A stretch of DNA of 64,000 nucleotides from Octopus vulgaris (lineage: Eukaryota), in the NCBI GenBank assembly GCA_951406725.2, contig OX597832.1:14446001-14510000 (forward strand), written 5' to 3'. The number at the start of each line of letters is the position of its first letter. Within the stretch, counting starts at the first letter, position 1. The position numbers and the translations under genes are program-made. The notes under the pieces were generated by a model, which was not told the DNA's origin, did not search any database, and saw only the letters and a program-made list of their open reading frames with translations. Shown in pieces: positions 2,572-15,902 of this stretch.

Positions 2572-3105
2572 AGTTAGTTAGTTAGTTAGTTAATTTGGTT
2601 CAAAAGCAAATAGCAAGGCCATGTAGGGGGACATGGGGTTAAGTATAGGGTGGCGTTCATGTAAAGAGTTCAGGCCACTTGAGGTCAAGGGAGGCTTTGA
2701 ACAAAGCGGTCGTCGGCATCTTCACCATCTCGTCTGGCAGCTTGTTCCACGGATCCGCAAGCCGGACGGAGAAAACTCCTCTCCTTCGATTGAGATAAAA
2801 TCGTCGCAGGTAGAGCTTTTCGGAATGACCCCGCAGCCGACGCTCTGGAGCAGGAGTGAATAACAGCTCTTTCGAGAGTTTATACTTTCCGCTTATGATG
2901 TTGTGGGCGAGAATGAGATCACCACGGCGGCGGCGTTTTCCAAGAGAATAAAGGTCGAGCGTCCTCAGCCTTTCTTCATAGGACACATTTTTGAGACCAT
3001 GAACTATGCGGGTGGCCAGCTCCTGGACTCTTTCGAGATGCTGTATGTCTTTGAGGAGATAAGGAGAAGAGGCTTGAATCCCGTACTCCAATATGGGTCT
3101 CAAAG
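2572..3105 (-). mobile_element. 5'-truncated CR1-clade LINE, ORF2 C-terminus plus 3' UTR with (CTAA)n tail
   Basis: ORF 2657-3103: RPILEYG...LERVQ..AT...GL..SYEERL..LDLYSL..RR.RGDLI...RGH..KL...FS.R...WNKLP; (gtta)n at 2572-2592. Confidence 0.9.
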
Positions 3106-3159
3106 CATCGGAAGCTGGAATTCAATCATTGTCTTCGTAGAAAACCTGTGTGATATTTT

Positions 3160-7398: not shown

Positions 7399-7714
7399 CA
7401 TACACACACACATACATACACACACATACATACATACACACATACATACATACATACATATACATACATACATACATATACATACATACATACACACACA
7501 CACAAACACACACACACAGTATTGAAGCTTGAGAACAATCAGATACATTTGCAACACATCTGTTGAAAATATTATTGTTCACACACATACATATACATAT
7601 ATACATACAGACAGACAGACAGATAGACACACACACACACACACACATGATCCAGCATGGCCACAACCTCAAGGCTGAAACATATAAAAGAATAACAGAA
7701 TATAAATGTGTGCA

Positions 7715-8065
7715 AAGTACAAGAAATATTAATGCAGTATATGGGGATTGGACAATAAGCGTAAGGCAGTGTCAATGGTGGTTCCAGAAATCCCGAGCCA
7801 TAAACTACAGCCTAGAAGACGAGCCTCATCCTGAAAGATCTGTAGAACTCGACAAGGACATCCTGAAAACCCTGGTGGAACAAAATATCATCGTAACTGT
7901 TGAGGAACTAGCAGAGAAGCTTGGATTTGGTCATTCAACCATTCATTGACAACTGTGTGCTATCGGAAAAGTCAGCAAATTGGGTCAATGGGTTCCTCAC
8001 GAACTTTCCGAGTCTAATTGCATGCAGAGAGTGAATGTATGCTTTTCTTTGCTGTCATATCTCAC
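7715..8065 (+). mobile_element. Mariner transposase N-terminal fragment (pseudogene)
   Basis: RNINAVYG...QWWFQK...SLEDEP...VEELAEKLG...STIH*QL..IGKVSKLGQWVPHEL contains the mariner WVPHEL motif. Confidence 0.9.
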
Positions 8066-8084: not shown

Positions 8085-8710
8085 TCTATATATATAAAAC
8101 TGTAGTTGTGTGAGTGTCTGTCCCCTTCGATTTAGATTCCTAACTACTCCCACATTTTGCGGTACAGTTTAACCAAATTCGGGTAGCTTATAGTCGTGAT
8201 TCATATCGAGCCCGTCTGAATATTAGCGCGCGTCTACGATGAGTTCTACGATTTTAAAAATAATTTAACATCATTTTTTATTCCATTTTAATGCATAATT
8301 TTTCGTGTGTCGATGGCGGCGGAGTTGGCGTCCACGCTCACACCTGCACCAATGGGGAAGGGAGTGTAAGGAAATCAACGTCGTAATGCGTTGTCAAGGA
8401 GACCAGTGTTCTTTTAGAACAACGACTTCATGGCTTGAAGACACCAAAACAGAAATGGCTAAGAAAGCGTCTACATGAGTCTACGATTTAAAAAAAAAAT
8501 TACCATCGTTTTTTTTCCATTTTAATGCATTTTTTCGCTATTATATAAGGGAAGTAACTCTCTAAAAATGTCTACGATGAGTCAACGATTTTAAAAAAAA
8601 TTTACCATCATATTTTTTCCATTTTTAATGCATTTTTTGCTATTTTTTGGCTATAACTCTCTAAAAATGCTTATATAGTTATTTCCCTTACAAACCCGAG
8701 CAACGCCGGG

Positions 8711-8715
<5 letters not shown>
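8085..8715 (+). mobile_element. Non-autonomous Helitron-like element with three internal ~65-bp repeats
   Basis: 5' a|TCtatatatataaaa; 3' GC-rich hairpin cccgagcaacgccggg (8695-8710); repeats gtctacgatgagt..acgattttaaaaa..atgcat at 8232, 8469, 8570; terminal CTRR not visible. Confidence 0.6.
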
Positions 8716-8806
<91 letters not shown>

Positions 8807-8944
8807 CATATATATATTATATAGAGGGTACTATTATTCATAGGTACCGCAAGCTAGGAGGGACCTTTGCAGTCAAAACTACTAAAATAAACAAATTTTA
8901 CCGAATGCAAAACTTCAAAGCAAGTCATTTAAAAACAGAATTTA

Positions 8945-9008
8945 GTTACATATCACCTGTGATTTCGCAATCAATGCAGAATATGCATTCTATTCTCTTC
9001 AGTGCAAC
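8945..9008 (-). ncRNA. Type-I hammerhead ribozyme with canonical core
   Basis: gttgca-CUGAAGA-g aatag aatgca(tattc)tgcatt gattg c-GAAA-tca(cagg)tga-UA-tgtaac: 6-bp stem I, stem II hairpin, 4-bp stem III, AUA cleavage triplet. Confidence 0.7.
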
Positions 9009-9039
9009 GAACTCAAGACATGTAAGAAAAAAAAAATAT

Positions 9040-9162
9040 ATTAATTGCTGGTGAAGGCCGAGGCTGGTTTATAGGGTTACCCGGGGTTTCTCGCCAAAAA
9101 TGTACCCATTATGGCGAGAAACCCAGGGTGATCATATAAACAGATATTTACCAATAATTAAT
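9040..9162. repeat. Imperfect palindrome (core ~36-bp arms, 9067-9141)
   Basis: gtttatagggttacccggggtttctcgccaaaaatg-tacc-cattatggcgagaaacccagggtgatcatataaac. Confidence 0.85.
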
Positions 9163-9224
9163 ATGGTCTACTCTACTCTTTGGAGAGTGCGTCTTCGGAT
9201 TTATTTTTTTCTAAAAGACGGTAC

Positions 9225-9287
<63 letters not shown>

Positions 9288-10649
9288 CATATGTACCTAG
9301 AGAGATAGTATGTGGGTGGGTGTGGGTGTGAATGAGAGAAAGAGAGATGGAAAGAGTGTTTGAAGTGTTGTACAGATATCGTAAATTTAGAATAATAAGG
9401 TATTCAGATTGTTAGATAATAAATATATATGTAATTGTATTTCTATTTTTTCTTCCGTTATCGGATTTATCAAGAAATGGTTCAAATTTAGATTTCTTGG
9501 ACATTTGTACAGAATTCTCTGGGGCTTGCCAAGGGACAAGAAAGAAGATAACATTTTTTTTAGAAGTAGGGAGAGGTAAAGAGGCCTGGCTTTTGTATAG
9601 TCAGACTTCTTTGTCTAGTACATAGTGGCTTTTAAGGTGGGGCGAAACAAAAGAAGAGAAAGGAAAAATAATTTTGGAATTCGAATTGCTGAATGTTTTT
9701 ATTGAAAAAACAAATATTGTTTTGGGCTTTTTCTTCAGTAAATATTATAAACGCATTTTTAGGACTTATGTTCTTTAAAGAATAGTAGTATGGATGAGGA
9801 CAACTTTTTCTGATTGAAATTCCAGAAACATTCGCCCACACAGCAATTATATATATATATACACATATACACACACCCTTGACCAATTCAAATACAAAAA
9901 TTATTTTTCATTTCTCTCTTTTTCCTCCCGAACTTATATATATATATATATATATGGGGGGGGGTATTTGTGTATGTGTATAACTATCCAACAATCTAAC
10001 TACATTATTCTAAATCTTTTCGTCTAAGACCAACTCCAAAACAATATAATCTTACTAGAGAACAACCATTTTAAAGTAACATGATTTTCAAAATTCTCTC
10101 AAAAATATCAAACCCACACTATAATATTCCAATTCAGTGCCTTCAAATATAAGTGTACAATTATTTCAATTTCCTAGAATTTCCATGTTTAAATATTTAG
10201 TAACGTTTAACGTAAATGAATATATCTCTTTAGAGAAGTAGCGCTCAACTTAGATGCAAATACTTTAGGGAATAATTTACTATATATTTCTTTTTATTTC
10301 TGACATGTATTGGGTTTTTTATTACTGTTCTTTTTTTGGCCATTGAAACTACACTAAAATTATCATATTATTCCGTTAGCATTGCCGTACCGAAGATATA
10401 CTTTTATTAAAATTATTTATAACTCTTTAAAACTTTCATCTGTAACAATATAAATCTGTTAAGTTTAAAGTAAAATAAAATCTCAGTAGACCATTTTCAG
10501 AAAAGGCACTTAACTTCCAGGAATTGCTAACTGAATATTCTCATATATAATTCATATGAAAGGGAAGAAAATTGTAATAATATGAATCATATTATATACA
10601 TACTTACTATATATATACGATATGTTTATCATATATATATATATAAATG

Positions 10650-14634: not shown

Positions 14635-15902
14635 TTGGGTTGACAACTAAATTCCCTCTGTTTTTTAAAATTTATATGTTTAAAAAGTCTTAATAAAACA
14701 TAACATCTAATTAATAAAAAATATATTGTGTTCTTGTTTACAACATTTTCCCAACGTTTAACAAGATTTTCAATACCTCGTTGGTAGAATTCTGTCGAGT
14801 CCAACCGAGCTCACAATTCTGCATCAGTTTTGAACGAAACTCCGCGCATGGTACTTGAAAAGATCGAAAGAGGTGGAAGTTCGGTTGCTGCCAAATCAGG
14901 AGAGTACGGCGAGTGTAGGAGCAGCACTTCCCAGCCATGCGTTTGAATCACTTCCTTGGTCATATAGTCGATATGAGGGCGGGTGTTGTCGCGCAGCAGA
15001 AAAACTCCATGCAGCCGATTAGGACTTTTCTCTTCAACAGCCGCGTTCAGTCGTTCCATCTATTAAACATAGAGTTCCGCGTTGACCGTTTGGTTCCGTT
15101 CAAGCAATTTGTAATGGATAATCCCTCCTCAGTCCCACAATAAGCCCAATATCGTCTTACGCGGATGAAGATCTTGTTTCACGCGCGGTGTCTCTCGTTT
15201 ACCGCGGCTAAGCCATTCCTTACGCTGCTTCATATTGATATATATGCACAATTCTTCGTCGCCAGTAATGATTCGGTAAAGAAATCGTTGCTTGTGTGCA
15301 TGAGGTGAGTAGTAACGAGCAAGCAACCCAGCGGAGATTTTGGCTCGTTGATTTTTGTTGTCCCTTAAATCATGCGGAAGACGTGCTCCATACATCTGAA
15401 CATTTCCCATCGAGTGAAGATGCTTCCCTATAGCAGTGTGAGAGCATTCAATTTTCTCTGCCAGTTCCCTTGTAGTCTGATGAGAATTTTCTTGCAAAAG
15501 TTGGTTTAATCGCTCTTCTTCGAACTCAGCTGGACGGCCAGAACGAGGTGCGTCTTTGCGGTCAAAATTTCCATTTTTCAAATTGGCATCCCAATTACGA
15601 GCGGTTCTTTCAACTATGGCACCCTCTCCATACACAACACAAATGTCGCTAGCAGATTTTGCGGCCTTATAACCTTGATTAAAAGCAAAAAGAAGGAAGT
15701 GTTGAAATTACTCGTTTTTCTTAACTTGACATTCCATTTCAATAATCTGAAAATAAGCAAAAATTAACTAAAATTTACTAGAAAAAAAAGATTCCAAAAT
15801 GATTCTAAAATAACCTTCTTGGTAAAAAATAGATTCCAAAATTTAAACGCACAATAAACTACCAATTGTAAAAATACGGCGGGAACTTAGTTGCCAACCC
15901 AA
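14635..15902 (-). mobile_element. Near full-length mariner (DD34D-type) transposon with disrupted transposase (~15737-14718)
   Basis: ~30-bp TIRs ttgggttgacaactaaattccc / gggaacttagttgccaacccaa, TA on left; motifs RSGRP, RLPHDL (WVPHEL), ITGDE, DNTRPH, HSPYSPDLA, FYQRGIENLVKRW. Confidence 0.95.

What the first reader, a model, noticed from the sequence alone, without database searches (positions are those of the whole stretch)
8945..9008. Apparently intact full type-I hammerhead on the minus strand
All canonical elements are visible: stem I gttgca/tgtaac, CUGAAGA, stem II closed by G-C with an inner aatgca/tgcatt hairpin, GAAA, a true 4-bp stem III (atca/tgat) and an AUA triplet. Unlike minimal PLE hammerheads it could cleave as a monomer. 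It sits in a ~400-bp non-coding island (8820-9225) bounded by (TA)n on both sides, which is retrozyme-sized (inference).
Basis: partly seen in the sequence, partly recalled or inferred. Interest (0 to 1): 0.7.

Follow-up and report, generated by a model that had tools for sequence, protein, structure and literature searches.

The report
Truncated hammerhead retrozyme copy, Penelope-mobilised
The hammerhead motif is real, but it is one clipped, slightly damaged copy of a 492-base non-coding repeat found at hundreds of TA microsatellites in this animal genome, which is likely pasted in by Penelope-type jumping-gene enzymes: a new member of a known class (retrozymes) whose cutting is predicted, not tested.

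Summary
The type I hammerhead at 9008-8945 (-) is real: it is the only such hit in the window, and 0 of 300 shuffles give one. Its family keeps the core and shows compensatory stem changes.

(1) The copy is not fully intact. A C-to-A change at 8994 breaks the second pair of stem II; 34 of 34 other copies have C. (2) The ~400-bp island is two unrelated elements: a 225-bp 5'-truncated piece (9033-8809) of a 492-500-bp ORF-less tandem unit, and an older fold-back repeat (9036-9220).

The family (at least 724 exact motif hits) inserts at (TA)n with two fixed 3' ends about 104 nt apart, one on each arm in 42 of 54 inverted insertions. Hydra-type Penelope elements in this genome, with long open frames, show the same target and a two-end pattern, but no sequence similarity to the unit. 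Copies run through the cleavage site, which fits a circular or uncleaved template.

Verdict: a new member of the animal non-LTR retrozymes; this copy is likely inert. The scan reported sister families with this pattern on other DNA (unreviewed AI notes).

The parts
8809..9033 (-). 5'-truncated solo copy of the 492-bp hammerhead repeat unit (about -30 to +195 relative to C3). Its 3' end is the '+198' end and merges with the TA tract.
   Evidence: 98.2% over 225 nt to L002; phase mapping onto the tandem locus L027
8945..9008 (-). Type I hammerhead: stem I 9008-9003/8950-8945; CUGAAGA 9002-8996; stem II base 8995-8993/8969-8967; distal hairpin 8989-8984/8978-8973; GAAA 8966-8963; stem III 8963-8960/8955-8952; predicted cut between 8951 and 8950
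8994..8994 (-). Near-private C-to-A change at hammerhead position 10.2; breaks a pair that covaries in the family (C-G in 19 rows, U-A in 11; the window is the one unpaired row of 31)
8938..9014 (-). Predicted distal extension of stem I (9014-9010 with 8942-8938) beyond a small internal loop; candidate partner for the stem II internal loop
   Evidence: an equivalent GACU/AGUC helix is predicted in the oldest subfamily
9036..9220 (.). Separate, older fold-back repeat (palindrome 9038-9164 plus a ~55-nt extension), not part of the hammerhead unit
   Evidence: (158 candidates, 40 scored, longest matches 69-82% identical); no CUGAnGA on either strand
8713..8823 (.). (TA)n tract at the element's 3' end; likely the insertion target
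   Evidence: 137 of 167 family arms are followed by (TA)4 within 40 nt
9225..9292 (.). (TA)n tract flanking the fold-back repeat, not the hammerhead element

Best explanation
The motif is the hammerhead of a 5'-truncated, likely inert copy of a young 492-bp ORF-less tandem repeat (an animal non-LTR retrozyme) that is likely copied into (TA)n microsatellites by the reverse transcriptase and GIY-YIG endonuclease of Penelope-like elements. Shown: a family of at least several hundred dispersed copies in five subfamilies, 70-100% alike; head-to-tail units without an ORF; conserved core and covarying stem II; two fixed 3' ends at (TA)n, ragged 5' ends and inverted arms; Hydra-type PLEs with long open frames in the same genome with the same target and two-end pattern; a single ribozyme with a stem II lesion in this copy. 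Inferred: tandem loci are transcribed, the hammerheads cut out a unit-length RNA that is ligated into a circle, and a PLE protein nicks (TA)n and starts reverse transcription at two internal sites (+198 and +302), running back through the resealed cleavage site and stopping at random. Here it stopped about 80 nt past the cleavage site, beside an older repeat, and the copy then acquired the 8994 change.
For: Family: 2119 first-look candidates, 40 scored, best hits 95-99% over the 213-nt hammerhead half. Exact motif counts 724 vs 1 control, 201 vs 3, 313 vs 7.

Unit: period 492 at L027 (2.7 units) and 500 at L085/L100. 23 of 167 arms exceed one unit. A PLE protein matched 2 of 129 loci tested, both the same decayed PLE ~800 bp downstream of one copy.

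Selection on the ribozyme: 11 of 2176 variant cells in the 64-mer vs 81 of 4247 downstream (Fisher p 2e-6; cells, not events). Core 11/11 identical in six diverged copies whose +60..+195 region is 68-84% identical. Compensatory C-G/U-A at 10.2-11.2 and A-U/G-C in the distal hairpin; 93.5% of cells paired vs 17-46% for slid controls. RNAalifold independently recovers stems I, II-distal and III. N7 (A/U/C) and H17 (A/C) vary as the hammerhead rules allow.

PLE signature: 152 of 167 arms end at ~+198 or ~+302. 137 are followed by (TA)4. Of 54 inverted loci, 42 are exactly one +198 arm and one +302 arm, and none is a two-arm locus with like ends. In 17 PLE loci the 3' ends fall at +112-119 (9), +236-240 (7) or +94 (1), all followed by TA repeats. 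These PLEs carry RWK/RWR, DKT, CxCX5C, CxxC and CxH, the Hydra traits of Craig 2021. Two internal RT starts define the PLE 'tail' in Frangieh 2024.

Template: 0 of 30 copies picked by a motif just 3' of the cut begin at the cut. 2 of 167 5' ends lie within 3 nt of it (about 2.4 expected if uniform), and 7 arms cross it two or more times. The circular monomer folds at -113 vs -92 +/- 6 kcal/mol for 60 shuffles.
Against: No cleavage, ligation or circle is shown. The unit has no detectable similarity to the pLTRs of the three PLE families tested (126-153 of 200 shuffles scored as well) or to their 3' UTRs (4-26 of 100), so the partner is matched by pattern only and the parent is unknown. Each compensatory change rests on one subfamily (11 rows, probably one event), and the count of pairs changed on both sides does not beat shuffles (4 vs 3.6; 248/500). 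Diverged copies were partly chosen by core motifs, where the 5' core was not in the pattern, 10 of 12 keep CUGAnGA. A large subfamily (313 hits) amplified with an A10.1.C11.1 mismatch, so efficient cleavage may not be needed. In the Anolis PLE, hammerhead mutants did not affect insertion in vitro, and 8 of 9 Xenopus retrozyme dimers did not cleave. Read-through of the cut site fits an uncleaved linear multimer as well as a circle. At 492-500 nt the unit is above the 150-450-bp range of Cervera 2020, though within the 51-972 bp of Li 2026.
Confidence: 0.75

Rival explanations
1. Same non-autonomous PLE parasite, but copied from uncleaved linear multimeric RNA. The hammerhead is inherited from a PLE pLTR and cuts rarely or only with protein help; no circle is involved.
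For: Copies run through the cut site. The competent fold is predicted to be a minor state. A subfamily with an A.C mismatch at 10.1-11.1 amplified. The Anolis PLE uses unprocessed RNA and its ribozyme needs protein.
Against: Core and stems were kept across subfamilies 70% alike, with compensatory changes, which needs a function that benefits the element's own spread. Seven arms would need two or three uncut ribozymes in one RNA. Circles were shown for coral, mussel and axolotl retrozymes.
Confidence: 0.17
2. The fragment is the pLTR end of a 5'-truncated autonomous Penelope-like element not yet found.
For: Same target, two-end tail and inverted arms as PLEs. Only one PLE clade was sampled here.
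Against: The unit continues seamlessly into itself without an ORF. No PLE protein match adjoins the unit in 129 loci, apart from one decayed PLE ~800 bp away. The PLE hammerheads here have a long 50-60-nt stem II region and a 2-bp stem III, unlike this one.
Confidence: 0.05
3. One reading: the 8820-9225 island is itself one retrozyme monomer with an intact ribozyme that cleaves as a monomer.
For: All core bases are present, stem III has 4 bp, and the island folds well (z -3.97). One-pair stem II hammerheads can be active when a pseudoknot holds them.
Against: The two halves belong to different repeat families of different age. The most stable helix in the island's predicted fold is the older element's hairpin, and the hammerhead does not form in it. 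There is one ribozyme only, with the stem II lesion.
Confidence: 0.02
4. A satellite or minisatellite spread at the DNA level, with the hammerhead incidental.
For: Some loci are head-to-tail arrays, and Li 2026 discuss local tandem amplification.
Against: Copies are dispersed, arrays are under three units in the loci seen, 3' ends are fixed while 5' ends are ragged, and arms are inverted and asymmetric.
Confidence: 0.01

Closest known systems
Animal non-LTR retrozymes (Cervera and de la Pena 2020, PMC7229834: passages and sections 14, 17 read; Li, Clavereau, Pollet 2026, bioRxiv 10.64898/2026.07.22.740005: parts 1-3 of 5 read, supplements closed)
   Same: Canonical type I hammerhead, one per ORF-less tandem unit; low GC (31%); dispersed monomers and short multimers; co-occurring PLEs; structured predicted circle.
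   Different: Unit of 492-500 nt, longer than the mussel 350-390. Stem II is interrupted by an internal loop and carries a 6-7-bp distal hairpin. Arrays are short (under 3 units seen). Fixed PLE-type double 3' ends and inverted arms, which the text I read does not describe for retrozymes. No pLTR parent found, unlike 24 of 57 Xenopus families. Cleavage and circles untested.
Hydra-clade EN+ Penelope-like elements (Craig et al. 2021, PMC8557442: passages and section 11 read; supplements not opened)
   Same: (TA)n targeting, hammerhead near the 3' end of insertions, inverted 5'-truncated arms, tail on one end. The resident PLEs (L064-L083) carry the Hydra motifs.
   Different: The window's element encodes no protein and shares no detectable sequence with those pLTRs. 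The tail is ~104 nt (about 120 in the resident PLEs) against 30-40 bp described.
Poseidon PLE of Anolis, PAc (Frangieh et al. 2024, PMC11167929: parts 1-2 of 4 read)
   Same: Two internal reverse-transcription start sites define a tail; AT-rich target; no pile-up of ends at the hammerhead cut.
   Different: PAc is autonomous with a protein-assisted ribozyme; this is a non-coding passenger with a full-size hammerhead.
Minimal PLE hammerheads (Cervera and de la Pena 2014, PMC4209133: part 1 of 4 read)
   Same: Type I; palindromic helix III/loop 3 allowing a dimer fold (perfect palindrome in two subfamilies).
   Different: Helix III can form 3-4 bp as a monomer; helix I is 6 bp plus an extension; the unit is not a pLTR flanking an ORF.

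Membership tests
Type I hammerhead ribozyme | Core CUGAnGA, GAAA, UH in type I order | tested here: met
Type I hammerhead ribozyme | Three helices supported by comparison (family) | tested here: met
   two compensatory pairs, each from one subfamily
Type I hammerhead ribozyme | Continuous stem II base in the window copy | tested here: not met
   A.G at 10.2-11.2; the only unpaired row of 31. A lesion of this copy, not of the family.
Type I hammerhead ribozyme | Match to an Rfam hammerhead model | tested here: not met
   none at gathering score, none at E <= 10. The interrupted stem II may be the reason (inference).
Type I hammerhead ribozyme | Loop 1-loop 2 tertiary contact | not tested
   Internal loops exist in stems I and II; contact not modelled
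Type I hammerhead ribozyme | Site-specific self-cleavage | not testable with these tools
   needs in vitro transcription
Animal non-LTR retrozyme | Hammerhead in each unit of a short head-to-tail repeat (family) | tested here: met
   L027, L021, L085, L100, L105; one of three L027 units has a core change
Animal non-LTR retrozyme | No protein coding, GC < 45% | tested here: met
   GC 0.31; sense frames <= 54 codons; a 156-codon antisense frame in one subfamily is absent from the next
Animal non-LTR retrozyme | Two consecutive ribozymes at this locus ('active' in Li 2026) | tested here: not met
   one ribozyme, 225 of 492 bp
Animal non-LTR retrozyme | Expressed as linear and circular unit-length RNA | tested here: inconclusive
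   no RNA holder listed; contigs only
Animal non-LTR retrozyme | Autonomous PLEs in the same genome | tested here: met
Penelope-like element (autonomous) | RT plus GIY-YIG frame between pLTRs | tested here: not met
PLE-mobilised element | Tail (two fixed 3' ends), inverted 5'-truncated arms, microsatellite target | tested here: met
   same target and two-end pattern in resident PLEs
PLE-mobilised element | Sequence kinship with a PLE pLTR | tested here: not met
   three related PLE families tested; other clades not sampled

The most novel reading that the evidence does not exclude
The family is copied from a ribozyme-made RNA circle by a dimeric Hydra-clade Penelope protein that starts two cDNAs at two different fixed sites (+198 and +302), one on each nicked strand of a (TA)n target. 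That is why inverted insertions carry one end of each kind (42 loci to 0). The protein would recognise this RNA without pLTR sequence kinship, which would name the enzyme and the geometry of retrozyme transposition and allow its reconstitution.
Probability: 0.35. Interest if true: 0.62.

Novelty: new member of a known kind. Interest (0 to 1): 0.35.

Why it matters
This copy matters little: it is a truncated, damaged insertion. I found no report of one in the searches (CC-licensed PMC and bioRxiv only; supplements and repeat databases not seen). Its insertion anatomy bears on an open point, namely which enzyme moves animal retrozymes and from what template. Cervera 2020 proposed PLEs, and Li 2026 gave phylogenetic support in Xenopus but left the mechanism open. 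Here the ORF-less repeat and resident Hydra-type PLEs share target and double-end signature, which names a candidate protein and two start sites for an in vitro test. Natural variants at 10.1-11.1 and 10.2-11.2 also give a ready series for asking whether cleavage is needed for spread.

Tried and rejected
Rfam scans: no hammerhead hit.

Expression: no RNA holder listed. The 'RNA?' runs are guessed in kind and contigs only. They hold parts of the unit (X5 covers all 29 bins), with no splice joint and no start or end signal. An apparent gap over -190..-20 in X1 and most of X11 suggested a promoter or intron, but X5 covers it, so I dropped the idea. None of this counts as evidence for or against expression.

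Antisense 156-codon frame: reached by 1 of 2000 shuffles, but no frame exceeds 70 codons in the 500-bp subfamily; treated as incidental. One search was in the wrong frame.

PLE fragment beside L009/L041: a separate decayed insertion ~800 bp downstream.

Parent pLTR: no similarity above shuffles. Pfam and PDB gave no hit for the PLE proteins. Their identity rests on motifs read by eye against Craig 2021 and on Atlas feature hits to GIY-YIG/HTH_animal clusters (a lead).

A stem I variant suggested by the read tables had 1 genomic hit.

Within-locus versus between-locus identity, meant to separate circle from multimer: inconclusive, because phase drift inflated several rows and the nearest-neighbour minimum is biased low.

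Rows dropped: L092 and L134/L156 (pattern hits that are not family members); loci fetched twice, 31 rows chosen from 67 distinct sequences (most length variants, near-duplicates and truncated rows left out). Look-ups of earlier findings by sequence and place found nothing.

Full report
OBSERVATION. My descriptor found it alone in the window, and 0 of 300 shuffles gave a comparable hit. Rfam does not detect it, and the 64-mer's minimum-energy fold is not the hammerhead. The window lies in a 2.8-Gb, 227-contig animal assembly rich in (TA)n. An octopus-type genome is my inference.

THE ISLAND IS TWO ELEMENTS. Searching the genome with 8820-9225 returned 2119 candidates, 40 scored. Apart from the window itself, all matches covered only the hammerhead half, the best at 95-99%. 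The other half has its own family (158 candidates, 40 scored, longest matches 69-82%): a fold-back repeat without a hammerhead core. The hammerhead piece spans 9033-8809 (98.2% to L002). It maps to about -30..+195 of a 492-bp unit that stands head to tail at L027 (2.7 units) and L021 (1.8 units). The window thus holds under half a unit and one ribozyme.

THE COPY IS DAMAGED. Position 10.2 (8994) is A where 34 of 34 other copies have C. Genome counts are 201 for the C form and 2 for the A form, with patterns of 14 and 20 nt. The second A copy (L114) differs at several other sites and probably arose separately. The change cuts the predicted probability of the stem II closing pair from 0.97 to 0.07. 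Perreault 2011 (PMC3088659, passages) report an active hammerhead with a one-pair stem II held by a pseudoknot, so residual cutting is possible.

THE FAMILY'S RIBOZYME IS UNDER SELECTION. Variant tables from sequencing contigs led to a 500-bp subfamily, 86% identical (313 hits vs 7 control). Relaxed patterns gave three more subfamilies, down to about 70-73% (48 hits vs 0, and 12 vs 1). In 31 rows chosen from 67 distinct sequences, 93.5% of cells pair, against 17-46% for slid controls. 10.2-11.2 is C-G in 19 rows and U-A in 11, a distal pair is A-U in 20 and G-C in 11, and the window is the only row unpaired at 10.2. Against this: both changes come from one subfamily, and the count of doubly changed pairs does not beat shuffles (248/500). 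RNAalifold recovers stems I, III and the distal hairpin but not the stem II base. The core was 11/11 identical in six diverged copies while the +60..+195 region was 68-84% identical. The patterns partly selected for the core, but, which did not fix the 5' core, 10 of 12 hits keep CUGAnGA. The 500-bp subfamily spread with an A10.1.C11.1 mismatch. Stem III plus loop is a perfect palindrome in two subfamilies, the feature linked to dimeric hammerheads in Cervera 2014 (part 1). 'Monomer, unlike PLE hammerheads' is therefore unproven.

INSERTION ANATOMY. Over 109 de-duplicated loci there are 167 arms. 74 end near +198, 78 near +302 and 15 elsewhere; 137 are followed by (TA)4 within 40 nt; 23 exceed one unit. 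54 loci have inverted arms: 42 are exactly one +198 and one +302 arm, 9 are two-arm loci with one unclassified end, 3 are complex, and none is a two-arm locus with like ends (37 of 47 in the first 94 loci). 5' ends are ragged. None of 30 copies picked by a motif just 3' of the cut starts at the cut (nearest 10 nt upstream; 21 of 30 have an intact core). Two of 167 5' ends lie within 3 nt of it, 128 arms cross it, and 7 cross it twice or more. Most loci were chosen for holding the ribozyme, which biases the 128 upward.

PARTNER. A decayed PLE fragment near one copy was used to search the genome (150 scored). Twenty loci reported with long frames were fetched; their longest frames are 455-1091 aa. 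They carry their own sense hammerhead about 290 nt before the ATG, with a 50-60-nt stem II region and a 2-bp stem III. The proteins show RWK/RWR, DKT, CxCX5C, CxxC and CxH, matching Hydra in Craig 2021 section 11. Pfam and PDB were blank, and Atlas neighbours carry GIY-YIG. In the 17 loci with a 3' hammerhead, ends fall at +112-119 (9), +236-240 (7) or +94 (1), each followed by TA repeats. That is the retrozyme's pattern with a tail of similar length. No sequence similarity to the unit was found, so this is a match of behaviour, not descent.

MECHANISM. Frangieh 2024 (parts 1-2) showed that a PLE protein cuts and extends both strands of AT-rich DNA, starts at two internal RNA sites that define the tail, and is predicted to dimerise. 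Applied here by inference: a Hydra-type protein nicks (TA)n, starts at +198 or +302, and copies backwards until it falls off; two starts on opposite strands give the asymmetric inverted insertions. Copies pass the cut site, so the template is a circle or an uncleaved multimer. I favour the circle (about 0.6-0.65). It reconciles a conserved ribozyme with read-through, circles are shown for other animal retrozymes (Cervera 2020), and the circular monomer is more stable than shuffles. My direct test was inconclusive, and no RNA evidence was available. The window copy is a single arm with the +198 end that stopped about 80 nt past the cut site, at the AT-rich edge of the older repeat.

COMPARISON AND NOVELTY. 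The family meets the genomic criteria of animal non-LTR retrozymes; the window copy does not meet Li 2026's 'active' criterion of two consecutive ribozymes. Cleavage and circles are untested. Searches listed no paper on a cephalopod retrozyme or on PLE-type double ends in a retrozyme; they cover only the held library, and unseen supplements or repeat databases may list it. Earlier AI notes of this scan describe sister families of 485-600 nt with the same target and ends. I saw them after reaching this result, and they are not independent proof. Verdict: new member of a known kind; this copy is likely inert; interest 0.35.

Noticed in passing
window 9036-9220; L032-L040: Older ~185-bp fold-back repeat: a ~125-bp palindrome ending at (TA)n plus a ~55-nt extension on one arm, with consistent ends among copies and no CUGAnGA. 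It resembles a frozen asymmetric two-arm insertion; class unknown.
   Followed up: partly
L064-L083: Young Hydra-type Penelope families with frames up to 980-1091 aa containing long Asn-rich inserts, hammerheads with a 50-60-nt stem II region, and two 3' ends ~120 nt apart at (TA)n.
   Followed up: partly
L084-L113: The 500-bp subfamily (313 motif hits) amplified with an A10.1.C11.1 mismatch; some copies add one base on each side of the distal hairpin and have a GUA triplet.
   Followed up: partly
L027, strand opposite the ribozyme: 156-codon open frame covering most of the 492-bp (164-codon) unit; 1 of 2000 shuffles reach it, but it is not kept in the 500-bp subfamily.
   Followed up: partly
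L027:1599-1660 and 1978-2009: Contigs in runs X7 and X12 (two organism codes, two studies) share a diverged 5'-truncated copy with the same flanks; possibly an orthologous insertion.
   Followed up: no
L134/L156 (G000:C5:126556932-126556973): A hammerhead-like core unrelated to this unit; possibly another family.
   Followed up: no
window 7533-7946 (+), 15132-15707 (-), 2660-3121 (-): Frames resembling mariner/Tc1 transposase (first two) and a LINE reverse-transcriptase C-terminus (third); resemblance recalled, not searched.
   Followed up: no
window 8469-8669: 102-bp tandem repeat, two copies, 85% matches, just beyond the TA tract.
   Followed up: no
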